This document shows, in pieces, positions 3,699 to 30,005 of a stretch of 64,000 nucleotides of DNA; the first letter of the stretch is position 1; every line of letters begins with the position of its first letter. The position numbers were made by a program, and so were the translations under genes. Under the pieces are notes generated by a model that was given only the letters and a program-made list of their open reading frames with translations, was not told the origin of the DNA and did no database searches. The stretch is from the NCBI RefSeq assembly GCF_055900595.2, contig NZ_CM148325.1; one strand, 5' to 3'.

Positions 3699-4916
3699 CT
3701 ACACGTCCAGCAGCAGACGCGTCGGATCTTCCAGCAACTCTTTGATCGTTACCAGGAAGCCCACGGACTCGCGACCATCGATCAGACGGTGATCGTAGGA
3801 CAGCGCCAGGTACATCATCGGCAGGATCTCAACCTGACCATTCACTGCCATCGGACGATCTTTGATAGCGTGCATACCCAGAATTGCGCTCTGCGGCGGG
3901 TTGATGATAGGCGTAGACATCAGGGAACCGAACACACCACCGTTGGTGATGGTAAAGTTACCACCGGTCAGATCTTCAACCGTCAGCTTGCCGTCACGGC
4001 CTTTAACTGCCAGCTCTTTAATTTTCTTCTCGATGTCTGCCATGCCGAGGGTATCGACATCACGCAGAACCGGCGTCACCAGGCCGCGCGGCGTAGATAC
4101 CGCCATGCTGACGTCGAAATAGTTGTGGTAAACCACATCATCGCCGTCGATAGAAGCATTCACTTCCGGGTAACGTTTCAGGGCTTCAACCACCGCTTTC
4201 ACGTAGAAGGACATAAAGCCCAGACGGATGCCGTGACGTTTTTCAAACGCTTCACCATACTGCTTACGCAGATCCATAATCGGCTTCATGTTGACTTCGT
4301 TGAACGTGGTCAGCATGGCGGTGGAGTTTTTCGCTTCCAGCAGACGCTCTGCCACACGCTTACGCAGGCGAGTCATCGGAACACGTTTTTCGCTACGTGC
4401 AGCCAGAGCCGGTTGCGCCGCCGTAGTAGCTGCTGCCGGTGCAGACTCTTTCGCCGGGGCTTTCGCCAGATGTTTTTCCACATCTTCACGGGTCAGACGA
4501 CCACCTACACCGGTGCCTTTAATGGCGCTGGCATCAAGATTGTGTTCAGCCAAAAGGCGACGGATCGCCGGGCTTAAGGCATCGTTGTTTTGCTCTTCCA
4601 GAGACGCCTGTTGGCGTTGTGCCGGAGTTGACGCTTTCTCTTCAGCTTTAGCGCTGGTTTCTTTACCGGCGCTGTTGCCTTCACGCAGGCGACCAAGGAT
4701 CTGACGAGACGTTACGGTTGTACCTTCATCTTCCAGAACCGCATCCAGAATGCCGTCTGCTGATGCCGGTACTTCCAGTACCACTTTGTCAGTTTCGATT
4801 TCTACCAGCACTTCATCACGTACGACTGCGTCGCCGGGTTTTTTATGCCAGGTTGCGACGGTGGCATCGGCTACGGATTCAGGCAGGTCAGGGACCAGAA
4901 TATCTACGCTACTCAT
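3699..4916 (-). CDS. sucB: dihydrolipoyllysine-residue succinyltransferase (2-oxoglutarate dehydrogenase E2)
   Basis: 405 aa, lipoyl domain with [11 protein letters not shown], Ala/Pro linker, catalytic C-terminal domain. Confidence 0.97.
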
Positions 4917-11310: not shown

Positions 11311-12018
11311 GAATAACGCCCACATGCTGTTCTTATTATTCCCTGGGGACTACGGGCACAGAGGTTAACTTTCTGTTACCTGGAGACGTCGGGATTTCCT
11401 TCCTCCGGTCTGCTTGCGGGTCAGACAGCGTCCTTTCTATAACTGCGCGTCATGCAAAACACTGCTTCCAGATGCGAAAACGACACGTTACAACGCTGGG
11501 TGGCTCGGGATTGCAGGGTGTTCCGGAGACCTGGCGGCAGTATAGGCCGTTCACAAAATCATTACAATTAACCTACATATAGTTTGTCGGGTTTTATCCC
11601 GAACAGTGATCTGGGTCACGATAACAACATTTATTTAATTTTTAATCATCTAATTTGACAATCATTCAACAAAGTTGTTACAAACATCACTAGGAAAAGC
11701 ATATAATGCGTAAAAGTTATGAAGTCAGTATTTCACCTAAGATTAACTTATGTAACAGTGTGGAAGTATTGACCAATTCATTCGGGACAGTTATTAGTGG
11801 TAGACAAGTTTAATAATTCGGATTGCTAAGTACTTGATTCGCCATTTATTCGTCATCAATGGATCCTTTACCTGCAAGCGCCCAGAGCTCTGTACCCAGG
11901 TTTTCCCCTCTTTCACAGAGCGGCGAGCCAAATAACAAACGGGTAAAGCCAGGTTGATGTGCGAAGGCAAATTTAAGTTCCGGCAGTCTTACGCAATAAG
12001 GCGCTAAGGAGACCTTAA
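11311..12018. promoter_or_regulatory. divergent gltA / sdhCDAB promoter and leader region
   Basis: 708 bp AT-rich interval between divergent sdhC and gltA; this is the known position of the gltA and sdhC promoters and the long sdhC leader; individual sites not mapped here. Confidence 0.6.
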
Positions 12019-13302
12019 ATGGCTGATACAAAAGCAAAACTCACCCTCAACGGGGATACAGCTGTTGAACTGGATGTGCTGAAAGGCACGCTGGGTCAAG
12101 ACGTTATTGATATCCGTACTCTCGGTTCAAAAGGTGTGTTCACCTTTGACCCAGGCTTCACTTCAACCGCATCCTGCGAATCTAAAATTACTTTTATTGA
12201 TGGTGATGAAGGTATTTTGCTGCACCGCGGTTTCCCGATCGATCAGCTGGCGACCGATTCTAACTACCTGGAAGTTTGTTACATCCTGCTGAATGGTGAA
12301 AAACCAACTCAGGAACAGTATGACGAATTTAAAACGACGGTGACCCGTCATACCATGATCCACGAGCAGATTACCCGTCTGTTCCATGCTTTCCGTCGCG
12401 ACTCGCATCCAATGGCAGTCATGTGTGGTATTACCGGCGCGCTGGCGGCGTTCTATCACGACTCGCTGGATGTTAACAATCCTCGTCATCGTGAAATTGC
12501 CGCGTTCCGCCTGCTGTCAAAAATGCCGACCATGGCCGCGATGTGTTACAAGTATTCCATTGGTCAGCCATTCGTTTACCCGCGCAACGATCTCTCCTAT
12601 GCCGGTAACTTCCTGAATATGATGTTCTCCACGCCGTGCGAACCGTATGAAGTTAATCCGATTCTGGAACGTGCTATGGACCGTATTCTGATCCTGCACG
12701 CTGACCATGAACAGAACGCCTCTACCTCCACCGTGCGTACCGCTGGCTCTTCGGGGGCGAACCCGTTTGCCTGTATCGCAGCAGGTATTGCTTCACTGTG
12801 GGGACCTGCGCACGGTGGTGCTAACGAAGCAGCGCTGAAAATGCTGGAAGAAATCAGCTCCGTTAAACACATTCCGGAATTTGTTCGTCGTGCGAAAGAC
12901 AAGAATGACTCTTTCCGCCTGATGGGCTTCGGTCACCGCGTGTACAAAAACTACGACCCGCGCGCCACCGTCATGCGTGAAACCTGCCACGAAGTCCTGA
13001 AAGAGCTGGGCACGAAGGATGACCTGCTGGAAGTAGCTATGGAGCTGGAAAATATCGCGCTGAACGACCCGTACTTTATTGAGAAAAAACTGTACCCTAA
13101 CGTCGATTTCTACTCTGGTATCATCCTGAAAGCGATGGGTATTCCGTCTTCCATGTTCACCGTCATATTCGCTATGGCACGTACAGTTGGCTGGATCGCC
13201 CACTGGAGCGAAATGCACAGTGATGGCATGAAGATTGCCCGTCCACGTCAGCTGTATACCGGCTATGAAAAACGCGATTTTAAAAGCGACATCAAACGTT
13301 AA
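12019..13302 (+). CDS. gltA: citrate synthase
   Basis: 427 aa, [36 protein letters not shown]... Confidence 0.98.
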
Positions 13303-13331
13303 CTGCTGATTCCTAAGCTGTAAATTCTGTT

Positions 13332-13362
13332 AACCCGCCTTTAAAAGGCGGGTTAATTTTTA
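13332..13362 (+). terminator. gltA intrinsic terminator
   Basis: Hairpin AACCCGCCT-TTAAA-AGGCGGGTT followed by a T-run. Confidence 0.85.
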
Positions 13363-13694
13363 TCTACCTGAACACAAAAAAATGTAAAAATAAAATTAAT
13401 TAACCGGCTGACATTAATATTGCAAAATAATAGAATTGTTCATTTTATCGGCAAAATAATAAATTTTAATTAAGGTATCTGCTTTTAGTTACATTTATAA
13501 CCTCATGAAAATGAGGTATATCTCTCTCATTCCCCCCGATAACATTCATTAAATTATTAATTCATCACATCAATTAGTTAACCTTGCATTTAATATAATT
13601 AATAATATTTTTAAGTAAAACTAAAAACATTCGACAATCAAATAAGATATTCTGATATCGCTATACTTTTTCTATTTCTGTAAAGGACTCAGTT

Positions 13695-14261
13695 ATGTTT
13701 AAAGGACAAAAAACATTGGCCGCATTGGCCGTATCTCTGTTATTCACTGCACCGGTTTATGCAGCTGATGAAGGTTCTGGTGAAATTCACTTTAAAGGTG
13801 AGGTTATAGAAGCACCATGTGAAATACATCATGATGATATTGATAAAGAAATTGAGCTAGGTCAGGTGACCACCAGCCACATTAATCAGTCTCATCACAG
13901 CGATGCGGTTGCTGTCGACCTGCGTTTAATCAACTGCGACCTGGAAAACTCTAATAACGGTTCCGGTGGCAAGATTTCCAAAGTTGCGGTCACCTTCGAT
14001 AGCTCAGCGAAAACCACTGGCGCAGATCCGATACTCAACAATACCAGCACTGGCGAAGCCACCGGTGTCGGCGTGCGTTTAATGAATAAGGATCAAAGCA
14101 ATATCATTTTAGGCACTGCTTCTCCGGATATCGACCTCGCACCAACGTCCAGTGAACAAACACTGAACTTCTTTGCCTGGATGGAACAAATTGATCAAGC
14201 GACACCAGTAACGGCAGGGGCTGTTACAGCGAATGCAACCTACGTACTGGATTATAAATAA
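13695..14261 (+). CDS. ybgD: fimbrial major subunit-like protein
   Basis: 188 aa, signal peptide MFKGQKTLAALAVSLLFTAPVYA, fimbrial subunit fold; RBS AAAGGA upstream. Confidence 0.9.
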   Translation: MFKGQKTLAALAVSLLFTAPVYAADEGSGEIHFKGEVIEAPCEIHHDDIDKEIELGQVTTSHINQSHHSDAVAVDLRLINCDLENSNNGSGGKISKVAVTFDSSAKTTGADPILNNTSTGEATGVGVRLMNKDQSNIILGTASPDIDLAPTSSEQTLNFFAWMEQIDQATPVTAGAVTANATYVLDYK

Positions 14262-14310
14262 GCGTTATTGGGCGGCATCACTGCCGCCTTTCTTAAAATA
14301 TTTATCTGGT

Positions 14311-16770
14311 ATGGACACCGTGAATATTTATCGACTCTCTTTTGTATCCTGCCTGGTCATGGCGATGCCTTCCGCCATGGCGGTTGAATTCAACCTGAAT
14401 GTCCTCGACAAATCGATGCGTGAGCGCATTGATATTTCATTATTAAAGGAAAAAGGTGTCATTGCTCCCGGTGAATATTTTGTCAGCATTGCGGTAAATA
14501 ATAACCAAATCAGTAATGGGCAAAAAATTAACTGGCAAAAAAAGGGTGACAATACCATTCCGTGCATCAATGATTTATTGGTCGATAAATTTGGCTTAAA
14601 ACCTGAAGTCCGTCAGTCGTTACCCCTGATTAATCAGTGCGTCAATTTTAGCACCCGACCAGAAATGCTCTTCAATTTTGATCAGGCCAGTCAGCAACTG
14701 AATATCACCATCCCACAGGCCTGGCTGGCGTGGCACTCAGATAACTGGACTCCACCCTCCACATGGAAAGAAGGTGTCCCCGGTGTCCTGATGGATTACA
14801 ACTTGTTTGCCAGCAGCTACCGCCCACAGGATGGCAGCAGCAGCACTAATCTTAACGCCTACGGAACAGCCGGAATTAACGCGGGGGCATGGCGCTTACG
14901 CAGTGACTATCAGTTGAATCAAAATGATGGCGATGATAACCATGAGCAGTCAGGCGAAATATCACGTACCTATCTTTTTCGCCCGCTACCGCAATTAGGT
15001 TCAAAATTAACCCTCGGCGAAACGGATTTTAGTTCCAATATTTTCGACGGTTTTTCTTATACCGGCGCGGCACTGGCGAGTGACGACCGGATGTTACCGT
15101 GGGAACTGCGCGGCTACGCTCCACAAATTAGCGGTATTGCACAAACCAATGCCACGGTGACGATCAGTCAATCAGGCCGCGTCATCTACCAGAAAAAAGT
15201 CCCGCCAGGCCCGTTTATCATTGATGATCTGAATCAGTCCGTCCAGGGGACGCTGGATGTCAAAGTGACGGAAGAAGATGGTCGGGTGAACAATTTCCAG
15301 GTTTCGGCAGCATCGACGCCTTTCCTTACGCGCCAGGGGCAGGTTCGTTATAAACTGGCCGCGGGTCAGCCACGGCCCTCCATGTCTCATCAAACTGAAA
15401 ATGAAACCTTTTTTAGCAATGAAGTTTCCTGGGGGATGCTGTCAAATACCTCGCTGTACGGCGGCCTGCTGATTTCGGGTGATGACTACCATTCTGCCGC
15501 AATGGGTATCGGGCAAAATATGCTGTGGCTTGGCGCGCTATCGTTTGATGTCACCTGGGCCAGTAGCCATTTTGATACCGAGCAGGACGAGCGGGGATTA
15601 AGCTACCGCTTTAATTACAGCAAACAAGTGGATGCCACTAACAGCACGATTTCGCTCGCCGCTTATCGCTTCTCAGATCGTCATTTTCACAGCTACGCCA
15701 ACTATCTGGATCACAAATACAACGACAACGATGCGCAGGACGAAAAACAGACGATCAGCTTATCCGTGGGGCAACCGATTACCCCACTGAACCTCAATCT
15801 GTACGCCAACCTGCTGCATCAAACCTGGTGGAATGCAGACGCCTCCACGACCGCCAACATTACGGCGGGTTTTAATGTTGATATTGGTAACTGGAGAGAT
15901 ATCTCGATCTCGACGTCATTCAATACAACCCATTACGAAGATAAAGATCGCGACAACCAGATTTACCTGTCGATTTCGCTTCCCTTCGGTAACGGTGGTC
16001 GGGTCGGTTATGACATGCAAAACAGTAGCCACAGCACCACACACCGCATGTCGTGGAACGATACGCTGGATGAACGAAATAGCTGGGGGATGTCTGCTGG
16101 ACTACAATCCGACCGTCCGGACAATGGAGTCCAGGTGAGCGGTAACTATCAGCACCTGAGTTCAGCGGGTGAGTGGGATCTTTCTGGTACTTATGCTGCC
16201 AATGACTACAGTTCTGTTAGCAGCAGCTGGAGTGGTTCTTTCACGGCGACGCAATATGGTGCAGCCGTCCATCGCCGCAGCTCCACCAATGAACCACGCC
16301 TGATGGTCAGCACCGATGGCGTGGCAGATATTCCGGTTCAGGGCAATCTCGACTACACCAACCATTTTGGCATTGCAGTGGTACCGCTGGTTTCCAGTTA
16401 TCAACCTTCCACCGTGGCCGTGAACATGAACGACTTACCCGACGGCGTGACGGTGACAGAAAACGTCATCAAAGAAACGTGGATTGAAGGCGCAATAGGT
16501 TACAAATCACTGGCATCCCGTTCCGGTAAAGACATTAACGTCATCATTCGCAACGCCAGCGGTCAGTTCCCTCCCCTCGGTGCAGATATCCGTCAGGATG
16601 GCAGCAGCATTAGCGTGGGGATGGTTGGCGAGGAAGGACACGCCTGGTTAAGCGGAGTCGCTGAGAATCAAAAGTTTACCGTGGTCTGGGGTGATAGTCA
16701 GCGTTGCTCGCTCCATCTTCCTGAACATATGGAAGACACCGCAAATCGCCTGATTTTACCTTGTCATTAA
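14311..16770 (+). CDS. ybgQ: fimbrial outer-membrane usher
   Basis: About 819 aa; start placed at MDTVNIYRLSFVSCLVMAMPSAMA signal peptide; exact start uncertain. Confidence 0.88.
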   Translation: MDTVNIYRLSFVSCLVMAMPSAMAVEFNLNVLDKSMRERIDISLLKEKGVIAPGEYFVSIAVNNNQISNGQKINWQKKGDNTIPCINDLLVDKFGLKPEVRQSLPLINQCVNFSTRPEMLFNFDQASQQLNITIPQAWLAWHSDNWTPPSTWKEGVPGVLMDYNLFASSYRPQDGSSSTNLNAYGTAGINAGAWRLRSDYQLNQNDGDDNHEQSGEISRTYLFRPLPQLGSKLTLGETDFSSNIFDGFSYTGAALASDDRMLPWELRGYAPQISGIAQTNATVTISQSGRVIYQKKVPPGPFIIDDLNQSVQGTLDVKVTEEDGRVNNFQVSAASTPFLTRQGQVRYKLAAGQPRPSMSHQTENETFFSNEVSWGMLSNTSLYGGLLISGDDYHSAAMGIGQNMLWLGALSFDVTWASSHFDTEQDERGLSYRFNYSKQVDATNSTISLAAYRFSDRHFHSYANYLDHKYNDNDAQDEKQTISLSVGQPITPLNLNLYANLLHQTWWNADASTTANITAGFNVDIGNWRDISISTSFNTTHYEDKDRDNQIYLSISLPFGNGGRVGYDMQNSSHSTTHRMSWNDTLDERNSWGMSAGLQSDRPDNGVQVSGNYQHLSSAGEWDLSGTYAANDYSSVSSSWSGSFTATQYGAAVHRRSSTNEPRLMVSTDGVADIPVQGNLDYTNHFGIAVVPLVSSYQPSTVAVNMNDLPDGVTVTENVIKETWIEGAIGYKSLASRSGKDINVIIRNASGQFPPLGADIRQDGSSISVGMVGEEGHAWLSGVAENQKFTVVWGDSQRCSLHLPEHMEDTANRLILPCH

Positions 16771-16784
16771 TTAAGGAAATGAAA

Positions 16785-17516
16785 ATGACATTTATGAAAG
16801 GACTTCCCCTTTTGTTGTTGGTTACCAGTCTGTGTAGCCACGCTGCACTACAACCCGACCGCACTCGCATTGTGTTTAACGCTAATGATAAAGCTACCAG
16901 TCTGCGAGTAGATAATCGTAGCGATAAACTCCCCTACCTCGCTTATTCCTGGCTCGAAAATGAAAAAGGGGAGAAAAGCGACGATCTTCTGGTCGCCCTG
17001 CCACCGATACAACGTCTGGAACCGAAAGCAACAACGCAGGTGCGGATAGTCAAGCAAGCCTCGACCGCGAAATTACCGGGCGATCGCGAAACGCTATTTT
17101 TCTACAATATGCGTGAAATTCCTCCCGCCCCGGAAAAAAACAGCGACCATGCCGTTCTGCAAGTCGCCATCCAGAGCCGTATCAAGGTGTTCTGGCGACC
17201 GTCTGCATTACGCAAGAAAGCAGGAGAAAAGGTCGAACTGCAGTTACAGGTCAGCCAGCAGGGCAATCAGCTTAGCTTAAAAAACCCTACTGGCTATTAT
17301 CTGACCATCGCGTATCTTGGGCGAAATGAGCAAAGCGTTCTCCCGGGCTTCAAAACTGTGATGATTGCGCCTTTTAGTACAGTAAGCACAACCACTGGAA
17401 ATTATAGTGGCAGCCAGTTTTATCTCGGTTATATGGATGATTATGGCGCATTACGCATGACAACGCTCAACTGTAACGGGCAATGCCGTTTACAGGCGGT
17501 GGAGGCGAAGAAATGA
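16785..17516 (+). CDS. ybgP: fimbrial periplasmic chaperone
   Basis: About 243 aa, signal peptide [20 protein letters not shown], PapD-like; start chosen for AAGGA spacing, uncertain by a few codons. Confidence 0.88.
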
Positions 17517-18574
17517 GTGCTGGCAAGGGATTGTTGCTCATCATCTATTTGTTATTTCTACCGTTAAAATCTGCGCTTGCCCTGAACTGTTACTTTGGTT
17601 CATCCGGTGGTTCGGTAGAAAAATCGGAATCTATTCAACCATTTGCTGTACCAGGGAATGCCAAACCCGGCGATAAGATCTGGGAGTCTGACGATATTAA
17701 AATTCCCGTCTATTGTGACAACAATACCAACGGCAACTTTGAGAGCGAGCATGTCTACGCCTGGGTAAACCCGTACCCGGGAATTCAGGATCGCTATTAT
17801 CAACTCGGCGTAACTTACAATGGTGTTGATTATGATGCTAACCAGGGAAAAAGCCGCATCGACACTAACCAGTGCATCGACAGCAAAAACATTAATATTT
17901 ATACCCCTGAGCAGATCATCGCGATGGGATGGCAGAACAAAATTTGCTCTGGTGATCCCAATAATATTCATATGTCGCGTACGTTTCTCGCTCGCATGCG
18001 GTTATACGTCAAGATACGAGAGATACCGCCGCATGATTATCAAAGCACGCTCAGCGATTACATTGTGGTGCAATTTGATGGCGAAGGAAGCGTTAATGAG
18101 GACCCTACCGCCCAAAACCTGAAATATCATATTACCGGTCTGGAAAACATTCGGGTATTGGATTGCAGCGTCAATTTTTCTATTACCCCAGCCAACCAGG
18201 TCATTGATTTTGGTAAATTTAATGTACTGGATATCCGGCGACACAACATGACAAAAACATTCGGTATTAAAACGACAAAATCACAAAACGATCAATGTAC
18301 CGACGGATTCAAAGTCAGCTCTTCGTTTTATACCGAAGAAACATTGATTGAAGAGGATAAAGCACTGCTGATTGGCAATGGTCTGAAGCTACGTTTACTG
18401 GATGAAAACGCCTCGCCCTATACCTTCAACAAATACAGCGAATATGCCGACTTCACCAGTGACATGCTGATCTACGAAAAAACCTATACGGCTGAACTTT
18501 CGTCTATTCCCGGCACTCCCATTGAGGCTGGCTCCTTCGATACCGTGGTGCTTTTTAAGATTAACTATAACTAA
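17513..18574 (+). CDS. ybgO: fimbrial adhesin-like protein
   Basis: 353 aa from [23 protein letters not shown]; overlaps ybgP stop. Confidence 0.85.
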
Positions 18575-18583
18575 TTTCCCATG

Positions 18584-18615
18584 ATGCCCTTTGCAACCGA
18601 AAGGGCATCTCTTTC
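18584..18615 (+). terminator. putative terminator of the ybgDQPO operon
   Basis: Hairpin ATGCCCTTT-GCAACCG-AAAGGGCAT followed by a T-rich stretch. Confidence 0.55.
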
Positions 18616-27492: not shown

Positions 27493-27576
27493 TACTGCTC
27501 CTGAACGGTTTACAGGAGTAAGTGTAGACGGCAGTATTGAAAAAACGAAACGAATAAATGAATTCGGTAAAGAAAT

Positions 27577-27984
27577 TCAATTATTCATAATAAAGTTCAT
27601 AGTAGCGATAAATAGTTTCTTTTCTTCATCACTCATGGCAGCAACGTTTAACATGTTGTCATCAAAATTATTGATGTTATTTTTTAATTTCAGTAACTGC
27701 AAAGGAGAAAAATAGTCACTCCCGATGAGATTACTCAATACCAGCAATAGCTCCCCATCATATAAATAGCCCACCATAAGATTAATCTCTATCATCTCAA
27801 TTGCTTTTTGTACAGCAAGCGCCGGTAAGATATTCTGACGAAGCATTTTGGCAATATCATTTTCATCCAGTTCATCGGGTGTTTTATCTAATAAAGAATT
27901 ATACCAGTTTATTAAACCACTTTTGAAAGCGAACGAATCATATTGCAGGTGATAAATCTGTTTTAGGGTTTCTTTATTTTTCAA
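27577..27984 (-). CDS. hypothetical protein, AT-rich accessory ORF (possible immunity protein)
   Basis: 135 aa ORF with no TM segments, very AT-rich codon usage unlike neighbouring core genes; function not recognised. Confidence 0.5.
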   Translation of the reverse strand: MKNKETLKQIYHLQYDSFAFKSGLINWYNSLLDKTPDELDENDIAKMLRQNILPALAVQKAIEMIEINLMVGYLYDGELLLVLSNLIGSDYFSPLQLLKLKNNINNFDDNMLNVAAMSDEEKKLFIATMNFIMNN

Positions 27985-28026
27985 TTTATAGTGCCTTTAT
28001 TTGCTATAATTTTTTCTGAAATAACA

Positions 28027-28494
28027 TCAGCGAGTTTGCTCAGGTGCAGGGATGACCGAAATTGTCATGTATTTTTTCAGTCTGGCTTCTCGTTTCACAC
28101 CTTTCGGATCTGAACCAAAAGGAAGCGTCAAGCATGGTGAGTCAACGGTTTGGATTGTCCAGAGAGAATCACCAATGAATCTGAAATTGATGCTATCCGC
28201 TGTAACGGATAATCCCTCAAAACTTCCCGTCGCATACTCATTACCCAAACGTACGGTCTCTTTAACTCCATCGTTAACATCGATAAGGACAATTGTCAGT
28301 GATTCCTCAAAAATAACGTCATCCGTCAGAAAAAGGATATAACGCTGGTCATTAACCTGAATTGCCGCTTCCAGTATTTGCCCTGGTACAATAATACCTG
28401 TGTTATTGCCATTGAGCACAACGTCAGACTGAGCCTGAGATAAATCAGTCGCTTTGTGAACCTTGACCAACGATATCGAATTAACCTGTTGCAT
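28027..28494 (-). CDS. hypothetical protein, accessory ORF
   Basis: 155 aa from MQQVNSISLVKV; the 31 extra N-terminal codons in the longest ORF are the shadow of an upstream glycine-rich frame; start lies 2 nt after the stop of that small ORF (TGAttATG). Confidence 0.5.
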   Translation of the reverse strand: MQQVNSISLVKVHKATDLSQAQSDVVLNGNNTGIIVPGQILEAAIQVNDQRYILFLTDDVIFEESLTIVLIDVNDGVKETVRLGNEYATGSFEGLSVTADSINFRFIGDSLWTIQTVDSPCLTLPFGSDPKGVKREARLKKYMTISVIPAPEQTR

Positions 28495-28496
28495 AA

Positions 28497-28637
28497 TCAA
28501 TTCCACAAGCGCCCCATTTCCCATGCGGCAAGTGCACCGCCGACAAAGCCGCCAATAAGTACGCAAACAGGTGCTCCTGGACCACACATCAATCCGGTCA
28601 ACGCACCGCCTGCGACAGCACCGGCAATAATATTCAT
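28497..28637 (-). CDS. small glycine-zipper hydrophobic peptide (46 aa); possible C-terminal remnant of a disrupted gene
   Basis: MNIIAGAVAGGALTGLMCGPGAPVCVLIGGFVGGALAAWEMGRLWN with GGN-rich codons; no clear SD; in frame with the upstream 85-aa ORF across two stop codons. Confidence 0.3.
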   Translation of the reverse strand: MNIIAGAVAGGALTGLMCGPGAPVCVLIGGFVGGALAAWEMGRLWN

Positions 28638-28820
28638 CCGGGTACGACTGCCAGTGGTTTTAACAGATTTACGCTCACCGTTACGTATCCTGCCACCACT
28701 CAGGTTGCAGACGCGGCAGTCACAGCCTTGACGGTGTTGAAACTAAAGTTCAGGTGATAGTCTGATGTTCATAGTTTGAGCATTATCCCCTGACAGAATA
28801 AAATCAAGCAGTGTCAATGA

Positions 28821-29078
28821 TCACGTGTATATATCATTTAAAGCATTATCAAGCCAATCTTCCATGTTTTTAATTTTAGCCCGCGCATATAAATCATTCA
28901 TAACATCCTCATAACTCTGCCCATCATTGACCATACAATTAGCTGTATGAGGCAGAACATGTATAAAATCAGACAATATAAAACAAGCCTTTGAATTTCC
29001 AGAGTTAGCTGCAATTCTGATATCAATCAATCCTCTGGCAATCAATTTAAGAATAACATCTTGCATTTTAATTTCCAT
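28821..29078 (-). CDS. hypothetical protein, AT-rich accessory ORF
   Basis: 85 aa ORF (MEIKMQDVILKLIARGLIDIRIAANSG...); weak SD; same reading frame as the glycine-zipper segment downstream. Confidence 0.4.
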   Translation of the reverse strand: MEIKMQDVILKLIARGLIDIRIAANSGNSKACFILSDFIHVLPHTANCMVNDGQSYEDVMNDLYARAKIKNMEDWLDNALNDIYT

Positions 29079-29160
29079 ATCATCCAGTTAAATTTCAGTA
29101 GTAAATCGTCTATCAAAAAAAGATGAAATTAACATTCATAAATTTATTACAATATGAAAA

Positions 29161-29514
29161 TCAAAAATATACATCATCAGCTTCTTCCGAAAACTCCATG
29201 GCTCCTAAGGCACCTAAATCAATACTAAATATAGTATCACTTTCCTTAGCACTCCCAACATAGATAAAATAGCCTAAATCTCCGTCTTGACCTATCAAAA
29301 AATAGTCAGGTTCCACTTGTTGAATATCATATGTTTCATTTCTTTCAATAAGATCAGAATAGTTATATAAATATAATGTTTCGTGCTTCTTATTAGTTAT
29401 TTCATAGGTCTCACTATCTTTAATTTCTTCTATCAAAAAATGTTTATACACTGGAGGAAACTTGATTGACATGTCAAATTCAATTTTATTTATATATTCT
29501 ATAATTTTATTCAT
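29161..29514 (-). CDS. SUKH (SMI1/KNR4)-like immunity-type protein
   Basis: 117 aa with FPPVYKHFL near the N-terminus and YFLIGQDGDLGYFIY near the C-terminus, resembling SUKH family signatures; AT-rich; no HMM run. Confidence 0.55.
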   Translation of the reverse strand: MNKIIEYINKIEFDMSIKFPPVYKHFLIEEIKDSETYEITNKKHETLYLYNYSDLIERNETYDIQQVEPDYFLIGQDGDLGYFIYVGSAKESDTIFSIDLGALGAMEFSEEADDVYF

Positions 29515-29798
29515 GTTAAGAATACATGAAAGATTATTTATTGATTATCTTGATGAATATATCTTCACTTTTTATTTTCATTTACTCATCGCGGAAATAC
29601 ACATTGCCTTGTAGACAAGCGCTAATAATACGTTATGAACCTGACTTCCGCCAGACAATCAATCTATGAATTCATTACGCCGTAGTGTTTTAGAAAGACA
29701 CTTTCTGACCAGATGGTGAACCATATACTACATCGCGCATTATAAAAAAACCGCCAGCGTTTCCACTAGCGGTTTTCAATGTTTTCAAAACTCAGCAA

Positions 29799-30005
29799 TC
29801 AGTAAAAATCACCGGTTGCCTTTTCGGCCTGATCCATCCACACCGGTTTATCGCTGGTTTTCGACCAGACGCGATGCAGATAGCTGTAAAAGCGGGCGCG
29901 GTCTTTCCAGAAAAGCATGAAAGGCAGCGCCAGAACGCCCGCTGCAACCGCATAAGTACGGCGTAAAAAGATAAGCCATGCAGGATATTCTCTGTAGAGT
30001 TCCAT
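29799..30005 (-). CDS. ybfA: DUF2517 small protein
   Basis: 68 aa, [49 protein letters not shown]... Confidence 0.88.

What the first reader, a model, noticed from the sequence alone, without database searches (positions are those of the whole stretch)
13363..13694. Strongly AT-rich region with a perfect palindrome upstream of the cryptic ybgDQPO fimbrial operon
About 330 bp of very AT-rich DNA precede ybgD, as expected for an H-NS-silenced chaperone-usher operon. It contains the perfect palindrome ACCTCAT-GAAA-ATGAGGT (13501-13517), a candidate operator or recombinase/regulator site.
Basis: seen in the sequence. Interest (0 to 1): 0.2.

Follow-up and report, generated by a model that had tools for sequence, protein, structure and literature searches.

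The report
AT-rich silenced ybg promoter; chance palindrome
The AT-rich stretch is the already documented H-NS-bound control region of the cryptic E. coli ybg fimbrial operon, and the small palindrome in it is a chance feature of one rare allele, so the finding is ordinary.

Summary
Window 13363-13694 is 24.4% G+C, against 50.8% for the window, and is its lowest-GC stretch.

The region lies between the gltA terminator and ybgD, the first gene of an intact fimbrial subunit/usher/chaperone/subunit operon. Published work on the K-12 orthologue lists this spacer as an H-NS-bound "promoter island" and predicts a sigma-70 promoter in it.

The palindrome does not hold up as a regulatory site:
- 54% of composition-matched shuffles of the region contain an equal or better one, and the window holds 99.
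- The window carries a rare allele of this spacer, found in 18 of 5,426 complete E. coli genomes. All 18 keep the palindrome.
- The three other allele classes, K-12 included, have only 1-4 of 7 arm pairs and no hairpin.
- It sits in the most variable 200 bp of the locus, outside the conserved blocks.
- The exact 18-mer occurs in no enterobacterial species representative, and Rfam has no match.
- No recombinase gene, inversion variant, GATC site or conserved ORF accompanies it.

Interest is low.

The parts
13330..13361 (+). gltA intrinsic terminator (13-bp stem TTAACCCGCCTTT/AAAGGCGGGTTAA plus T5). It lies just upstream of the finding and sets its left border.
   Evidence: I1; terminator-like site, 13 pairs. 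The stem sequence differs between alleles but stays a hairpin.
13363..13694 (+). AT-rich (24.4% G+C) regulatory spacer upstream of ybgD. It is probably H-NS-bound and rich in promoter-like sites ('promoter island').
   Evidence: composition; 7 promoter-like sites against 3.1 +/- 1.6 in shuffles. PMC3661553 Table 1 and PMC3946193 for the K-12 orthologue.
13369..13396 (+). Distal sigma-70 promoter-like site TGAACA-16-TAAAAT. It corresponds to the TAAACA-16-TAAAAT promoter predicted for ybgD in K-12, and it overlaps conserved block 13376-13396.
   Evidence: PMC3946193; alignment. Consensus match plus in-vitro holoenzyme binding in K-12; no transcription start site has been mapped.
13408..13436 (+). 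Best-scoring promoter-like site, CTGACA-17-TAGAAT (10 of 12). It is allele-specific: the -35 is not kept in K-12.
   Evidence: alignment.
13500..13517 (.). The perfect palindrome ACCTCAT-GAAA-ATGAGGT. It is allele-specific and at chance level, and is probably non-functional.
13603..13628 (+). Block conserved across all allele classes (TAATATTTTTAAGTAAAACTAAAAAC). Candidate proximal core promoter or regulator site.
   Evidence: 10/13 and 10/12 invariant columns inside an otherwise 54-66% identical spacer. Its function is inferred.
13679..13697 (+). Conserved ribosome-binding region (AAGGA at 13683-13687, 7-nt spacer) and the ybgD start codon at 13695.
   Evidence: 37 of 41 columns invariant over 13679-13719.
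13695..18574 (+). The ybgD-ybgQ-ybgP-ybgO operon, all four reading frames intact: major fimbrial subunit, usher, chaperone and a 353-aa putative subunit/adhesin.
   Evidence: ORFs; RefSeq annotation of a strain whose spacer is 100% identical; Pfam Fimbrial, Usher/PapC_N/PapC_C and PapD_N/PapD_C; YbgO matches Fimbrial only weakly, 21.4 bits against a cut-off of 25.6.

Best explanation
Window 13363-13694 is the transcriptional control region of the cryptic ybgDQPO chaperone-usher fimbrial operon of E. coli, here in a rare allelic form. It works as a xenogeneic-type, AT-rich silenced promoter region. RNA polymerase can bind several overlapping promoter-like sites, including the conserved distal TGAACA-16-TAAAAT and a conserved proximal block at 13603-13628. 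H-NS polymerises over the low-GC DNA and keeps output low under laboratory conditions. The palindrome at 13500-13517 is a by-product of sequence drift in the least constrained central part of this spacer. It has no sequence-specific role. At most it forms a small allele-specific hairpin (-9.6 kcal/mol) in a long 5' leader, if transcription starts upstream of it. Shown: the composition, the gene context, the allele distribution, the lack of conservation and the chance-level statistics. Taken from the literature on the K-12 allele: H-NS binding, holoenzyme binding and the cryptic status of the operon. Inferred: that the same applies to this allele.
For: Composition: 24.4% G+C, the lowest in the window.

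Context: gltA terminator, then the spacer, then an intact fimbrial subunit/usher/chaperone/subunit operon.

K-12 orthologue: an H-NS-bound promoter island in all ChIP studies compiled in PMC3661553 Table 1. Genomic SELEX found an RpoD holoenzyme site with the TAAACA-16-TAAAAT promoter and an H-NS flag (PMC3946193).

Promoter-like sites are enriched: 7 against 3.1 +/- 1.6.

Low G+C (24-30%) and length (328-332 bp) are kept in four allele classes that are only 54-66% identical in the centre.

The palindrome:
- 54% of shuffles of the region have an equal or better one.
- It is present in only 18 of 5,426 E. coli genomes.
- Arm pairing is 7/7 in the window allele but 4, 1, 4 and 4 of 7 in the others, and only 7 of its 18 columns are invariant.
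- The hairpin is predicted only in the window allele.
- It lies outside the conserved blocks.
- The exact 18-mer is found in 12 species-representative genomes, all from unrelated phyla and none enterobacterial.
- Rfam has no match at it.
- There is no second copy in the window even with 2 mismatches.
Against: No H-NS or RNA polymerase binding data, and no transcription start site, exist for this allele; everything functional is transferred from K-12, which is only 72% identical over the spacer. The palindrome is invariant in all 18 carriers, including four that have a substitution or 1-base deletion within 25 nt of it. These genomes are at least 98.5% identical over the spacer, so this carries little weight. 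The isolated hairpin folds better than its shuffles (z = -3.6), as any perfect 7-bp inverted repeat must. Matches to the H-NS high-affinity motif TCGATAAATT are not notably enriched in the spacer (2 with two mismatches each).
Confidence: 0.85

Rival explanations
1. The palindrome is an operator for a dimeric transcription factor that regulates ybg expression specifically in strains with this allele.
For: It has perfect two-fold symmetry with 7-nt arms and a 4-nt spacer, and it lies about 180 nt upstream of ybgD. It is intact in all 18 carriers. The inner ATGAAAAT core is shared by three of the four allele classes.
Against: It is at chance level in this composition. The arms are not conserved in the other allele classes. 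There is no second copy in the 64-kb window even with 2 mismatches. No regulator gene is adjacent: gltA lies upstream and the operon is structural genes only. The exact site is absent from enterobacterial species representatives. From my own knowledge, it fits no E. coli consensus I could recall: FNR (TTGAT-N4-ATCAA) matches only 3 of 5 bases per half-site, and MqsA (ACCT-N2-4-AGGT) has the wrong spacing, since here it is N10.
Confidence: 0.05
2. The palindrome acts at the RNA level, as a stem-loop with a GAAA tetraloop in a long ybgD 5' leader transcribed from one of the upstream promoter-like sites. It would affect mRNA stability, pausing or translation.
For: Promoter-like sites lie at 13369-13396 and 13408-13436, upstream of it (PMC3946193). 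The hairpin is predicted at -9.6 kcal/mol and persists in the minimum-energy fold of the whole putative leader.
Against: The leader as a whole folds no better than shuffles (z = +0.53). No U-run follows on either strand, so it is not an intrinsic terminator. There is no hairpin at the equivalent position in K-12 or the 2013C-3277 allele (-0.8 and -1.3 kcal/mol, z about 0). Rfam has no match. It lies about 165 nt from the ribosome-binding site. No transcription start site is known.
Confidence: 0.06
3. The palindrome, or the AT-rich inverted repeats around it, is a site for a recombinase or a Dam/Lrp-type phase-variation switch, as in fim or pap.
For: Many fimbrial operons are phase-variable. 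AT-rich inverted repeats exist in the spacer, for example 13553-13562 with 13597-13606.
Against: No recombinase gene flanks the operon. All 18 carriers align collinearly over the whole 392-nt query as a single piece, so no inverted orientation is seen. There is no GATC site anywhere in 13303-13800, which excludes a pap-like Dam switch. The inverted repeats are low-complexity AT sequence.
Confidence: 0.01
4. The palindrome overlaps a small protein-coding ORF: + strand MKMRYISLIPPDNIH, or - strand, 27 aa, 13466-13549.
For: ORFs exist on both strands across it. On the - strand a GAGGT sits 5 nt before an ATG-TAA start-stop pair (seen in the sequence).
Against: No ORF is conserved in length, frame or sequence in any other allele class. 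There is no Shine-Dalgarno sequence before the + strand ATG. RefSeq K-12 annotates nothing in this spacer, although it does annotate the small proteins ybgU and ybgV in the neighbouring gltA-sdhC spacer.
Confidence: 0.02

Closest known systems
H-NS-bound 'promoter island' ybgD/gltA of E. coli K-12 (Panyukov & Ozoline 2013, PMC3661553), with the constitutive RpoD promoter predicted for ybgD (Shimada et al. 2014, PMC3946193)
   Same: It has the same genomic position between the gltA terminator and ybgD, the same length (about 330 bp) and the same low G+C. The conserved distal block contains the predicted -35/-10 pair, and promoter-like sites are over-represented.
   Different: The window carries a different allele, 72% identical over the spacer and 66% in its centre. 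That allele is rare, found in 18 of 5,426 genomes. The palindrome exists only in this allele. Binding of H-NS and RNA polymerase was not measured for it.
Upstream regions of other cryptic, H-NS-repressed chaperone-usher operons of E. coli (sfm, yad, yeh, yra, elf/ycb, fim), several of which are also listed as promoter islands in PMC3661553 Table 1
   Same: It is an AT-rich spacer in front of a fimbrial major-subunit gene. The operon is silent in laboratory culture and classed as core-associated (PMC3559732).
   Different: No dedicated regulator or recombinase is encoded at the ybg locus, unlike fimB/fimE at fim.
fimS invertible promoter element of type 1 fimbriae
   Same: It is an AT-rich fimbrial promoter region that contains inverted repeats.
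   Different: fimS is a 314-bp segment bounded by 9-bp inverted repeats and flipped by the adjacent recombinases FimB and FimE (established knowledge). Here there are no flanking recombinase genes and no orientation variants among carriers.

Membership tests
Regulatory region of a chaperone-usher fimbrial operon | It lies directly upstream of an operon that encodes a fimbrial subunit, an outer-membrane usher and a periplasmic PapD-like chaperone. | tested here: met
   Pfam: Fimbrial (E 2.4e-29), Usher (E 1.2e-187) with PapC_N and PapC_C, and PapD_N/PapD_C. RefSeq annotates ybgQ, ybgP and ybgO in a strain with a 100% identical spacer.
H-NS-silenced (xenogeneic-type) promoter region | G+C content is markedly below the genome average. 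| tested here: met
   24.4% against 50.8%, the lowest in the window. All allele classes are 24-30%.
H-NS-silenced (xenogeneic-type) promoter region | H-NS occupancy in vivo (ChIP), and derepression in an hns mutant. | not testable with these tools
   For the K-12 allele, the spacer is bound by H-NS in all the ChIP studies compiled in PMC3661553 Table 1, and PMC3946193 flags an H-NS SELEX site. There are no data for this allele. Derepression of ybg specifically was not found in the papers held.
H-NS-silenced (xenogeneic-type) promoter region | Presence of high-affinity nucleation motifs (TCGATAAATT-like). | tested here: inconclusive
   The spacer has two matches with 2 mismatches each (13442-13451 on the - strand, 13546-13555 on the + strand). 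An exact match lies at 14582-14591 inside ybgQ. The window total is 107 against 65 +/- 8 expected.
Promoter island (Ozoline group definition) | An unusually high density of promoter-like sites on both strands within about 300-1000 bp. | tested here: met
   7 sites (3 on the + strand, 4 on the - strand) against 3.1 +/- 1.6 in shuffles.
Transcription-factor operator (palindromic) | The symmetric arms are conserved in orthologous regions, or the site recurs at co-regulated promoters. | tested here: not met
   The other allele classes have 4, 1, 4 and 4 of 7 arm pairs. There is no other copy in the window. No enterobacterial hit was found among 100,044 species representatives.
Invertible-element or recombinase phase switch (fimS-like) | An adjacent site-specific recombinase gene, and both orientations observed in populations or genomes. 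| tested here: not met
   No recombinase is annotated at the locus. The carriers listed are collinear in a single aligned piece.
Dam/Lrp phase switch (pap-like) | Two GATC sites within Lrp-binding regions upstream of the promoter. | tested here: not met
   There is no GATC in 13303-13800.
Intrinsic terminator or known cis-regulatory RNA | A GC-rich stem followed by a U-run, or a match to an Rfam family. | tested here: not met
   The terminator scan did not call it on either strand. Rfam has no hit at 13500-13517 even at E<=10.

The most novel reading that the evidence does not exclude
The gltA-ybgD spacer is kept in E. coli as at least four anciently diverged regulatory alleles. Their length and AT content are preserved while the sequence is not. 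The rare window allele, with its private palindrome or hairpin and its private 10-of-12 promoter match at 13408-13436, would give the ybg fimbriae a different expression programme. This would be regulatory allele diversity under diversifying selection, parallel to the antigenic diversity of the YbgD subunit.
Probability: 0.07. Interest if true: 0.35.

Novelty: already known. Interest (0 to 1): 0.08.

Why it matters
It matters little. The AT-rich spacer is a textbook case of an H-NS-bound, cryptic fimbrial promoter region, and its K-12 counterpart is already catalogued. The palindrome adds nothing that survives testing. The only mildly useful outcome is a caution for sequence-only scanning: short perfect palindromes in 25% G+C DNA are expected by chance. 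A second outcome is the side observation that this spacer is one of the most polymorphic points of an otherwise 99% conserved neighbourhood.

Tried and rejected
1. Rfam scan of 13200-13800 at E<=10. The only hits were weak ones on the gltA terminator, with nothing at the palindrome.
2. Terminator reading. No T-run follows on either strand, and the scan did not call it.
3. Fold of the whole putative 5' leader, 13403-13710. It is no better than shuffles, z = +0.53.
4. Exact 18-mer in 100,044 species-representative genomes. It gave 12 hits, all in unrelated phyla (Bacillota, Bacteroidota, Chlamydiae, Cloacimonadota and others). About 4 are expected by chance on my own estimate for equal base frequencies, and more in AT-rich genomes. 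None was in Enterobacteriaceae.
5. H-NS high-affinity motif scan. It was uninformative for the spacer.
6. Small ORFs across the palindrome. None is conserved between alleles.
7. GATC/Dam switch. There are no GATC sites.
8. Invertible element. No recombinase gene and no inverted variants were found.
9. Recall-based comparison with the FNR and MqsA consensus sites. Neither fits; this rests on my own knowledge and was not tested with a tool.
10. An RpoE-dependent promoter for ybgD is mentioned in PMC7430671, citing EcoCyc. By eye I saw no convincing GGAACTT-N16-TCAAA-like site in this allele, and I did not test it formally.
11. Korea et al. 2010, the primary paper on cryptic K-12 fimbriae, is not held in the library.
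12. Orthologous spacers in other Escherichia species were not retrieved.

Full report
**Observation**

Reading the window shows gltA ending with TAA at 13300-13302. A strong intrinsic terminator follows: a 13-bp stem at 13330-13356 and a run of five T. Next comes a 332-nt spacer, and ybgD starts at 13695 behind a good ribosome-binding site (AAGGA at 13683-13687).

The spacer is 24.4% G+C against 50.8% for the window, and it is the lowest-GC stretch of the whole 64 kb.

The palindrome is real.

It is not statistically remarkable. Dinucleotide-preserving shuffles of the same 332 nt carry on average 1.04 perfect inverted repeats with 7-nt arms and a spacer of 0-10, and 54% of shuffles carry at least one. 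The window as a whole holds 99.

**Identity of the locus**

The spacer is 100% identical to that of several RefSeq E. coli chromosomes, for example strain Z0117EC0005. The annotation there reads sucA, sdhBADC, gltA, fimbrial protein, ybgQ, ybgP, ybgO, abrB.

Pfam confirms a fimbrial subunit, an usher with PapC N- and C-terminal domains, and a PapD-type chaperone. The fourth protein (353 aa) matches the Fimbrial family only weakly, at 21.4 bits against a cut-off of 25.6. All four reading frames are intact.

**An unexpected point: this is a rare allele**

Only 18 of 5,426 complete E. coli genomes carry this form of the spacer, at 98.5-100% identity. The other genomes with a match carry forms that are 66-76% identical.

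Alignment of representatives gives four classes:
- the window type;
- the K-12 type;
- the 2013C-3277 type;
- the H1827/12 and ATCC 8739 type.

In the centre of the spacer (13400-13600) these classes are 54-66% identical to one another. Most of gltA is 97-100% identical between the same strains, falling to about 89% over its last 100 bp.

Despite this divergence, every class keeps the length (328-332 bp) and a low G+C (24-30%). Three blocks are conserved across all classes:
- 13376-13396, in the distal part of the spacer;
- 13603-13628, in the proximal part;
- 13679-13719, which covers the ribosome-binding site and the start of ybgD.

**The palindrome is not conserved**

It lies in the most variable part of the spacer and outside the conserved blocks.

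| Allele | Sequence at the equivalent position | Watson-Crick arm pairs (of 7) |
|---|---|---|
| window | ACCTCATGAAAATGAGGT | 7 |
| K-12 | ACCCTATGAAAATGACGT | 4 |
| H1827/12 and ATCC 8739 | ACCCAATGAAAATTATGC | 4 |
| 2013C-3277 | AACCACCAAATATAGTGC | 1 |

Only 7 of the 18 columns are invariant.

As RNA, the window sequence forms a -9.6 kcal/mol hairpin. The K-12 and 2013C-3277 sequences do not, at -0.8 and -1.3 kcal/mol and no better than shuffles.

Within the 18 carriers the palindrome is always intact. The substitutions and one 1-base deletion that some carriers have nearby fall just outside it. These genomes are nearly identical over the spacer, so this says little.

The exact 18-mer occurs in 12 of 100,044 species-representative genomes. 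All 12 belong to unrelated phyla and none to Enterobacteriaceae. This count is of the order expected by chance on my own estimate.

No second copy exists in the window, even with two mismatches.

**Other readings of the palindrome**

- *Known RNA families.* Rfam gives nothing at the site.
- *Intrinsic terminator.* No U-run follows on either strand, and the terminator scan does not call it.
- *Structured leader.* The putative 5' leader as a whole folds no better than shuffles, z = +0.53.
- *Recombinase or phase switch.* No recombinase gene is at the locus. No carrier listed shows an inverted segment. No GATC site lies in 13303-13800. fim-like and pap-like switches are therefore not supported.
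- *Small ORFs.* ORFs cross the palindrome on both strands, but none is conserved in any other allele class. RefSeq K-12 annotates nothing in this spacer, although it annotates the small proteins ybgU and ybgV next door.

**What the region does**

The literature on the K-12 allele supplies the function.
- Panyukov and Ozoline list the 413-bp ybgD/gltA spacer among 78 "promoter islands". These are regions dense in promoter-like sites and low in transcript output. They mark this one as bound by H-NS in all the ChIP data sets they compiled (PMC3661553, Table 1).
- Shimada et al. found an RpoD holoenzyme binding site in the same spacer by genomic SELEX. They assigned it the promoter TAAACA-16-TAAAAT for ybgD and flagged an H-NS site in the spacer (PMC3946193).
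- Wurpel et al. class Ybg as a core-associated chaperone-usher fimbria found mainly in commensal and diarrhoeagenic strains. They note that cryptic fimbriae of commensal E. coli are repressed by H-NS (PMC3559732).
- BolA overproduction raises ybgD transcript levels (PMC4337573).

The Shimada promoter corresponds to TGAACA-16-TAAAAT at window 13369-13396. The consensus scan also picks that site, and it overlaps the first conserved block. The scan finds 7 promoter-like sites in 600 nt against 3.1 +/- 1.6 in shuffles.

The best-supported account is therefore an AT-rich spacer that binds RNA polymerase and is coated and silenced by H-NS. The palindrome is a by-product of drift in its least constrained part. 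H-NS binding to this allele is an inference from composition and from the K-12 data.

**Verdict**

The AT-rich region is real, correctly interpreted and already known. The palindrome is real as sequence but at chance level, allele-specific and unsupported as a regulatory site. Interest is low.

The one point that might deserve a note elsewhere is the deep multi-allelic polymorphism of this spacer and of ybgD inside a 99% conserved neighbourhood.

Noticed in passing
window 13200-18600, with loci L002-L005: The gltA-ybgD spacer and the ybg operon are a polymorphism hotspot. There are at least four deeply diverged spacer alleles within E. coli, 54-66% identical in the centre, while most of gltA is 97-100% identical. 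ybgD of the window is only 64-74% identical to K-12 ybgD over 13805-14205. Divergence begins in the last ~100 bp of gltA. The pattern is mosaic: 2013C-3277 and ATCC 8739 encode the same YbgD protein (WP_000472422.1) behind different spacer classes.
   Followed up: partly
window 13330-13361: The sequence of the gltA terminator stem differs between allele classes (TTAACCCGCC..., GGACCCGCC...) but remains a hairpin followed by a T-run in all of them.
   Followed up: partly
L006 (E. coli MS7163) 4000-4700: In this uropathogenic strain ybgD, ybgQ and ybgP are deleted and only a 3' remnant of ybgO is left next to gltA. Other genomes listed match only query positions 5-93, and about 1,160 genomes gave no match at all.
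   Followed up: partly
L010 (E. coli FDAARGOS_943) 787-1484: An IS1 element is inserted in the gltA-ybgD spacer, and ybgQ is a pseudogene with an internal stop. This is an example of decay of this cryptic operon.
   Followed up: no
window 14582-14591 (+), inside ybgQ: An exact match to the H-NS high-affinity motif TCGATAAATT, with a 1-mismatch match at 14325-14334, lies in a local G+C dip (40-42%) at the 5' end of the usher gene. It could be a downstream H-NS nucleation site.
   Followed up: no
window 27535-29968 and about 38040: These are the other lowest-GC stretches of the window (24-35%). By coordinate mapping to strain Z0117EC0005, the first lies in the ybfA / hypothetical proteins / orphan contact-dependent-inhibition immunity gene region, and the second in the speFL-kdpE spacer.
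   Followed up: no
window about 11700-11810 (gltA-sdhC spacer): A 108-nt ORF annotated 'hypothetical protein' in RefSeq strains corresponds to the K-12 small protein gene ybgU. K-12 also annotates an overlapping ybgV.
   Followed up: no
window 13369-13396 and 13603-13628: These two sequence blocks stay conserved across all spacer alleles although the sequence between them diverges by 35-45%. They are the best candidates for the functional promoter or regulator sites of ybgD.
   Followed up: partly
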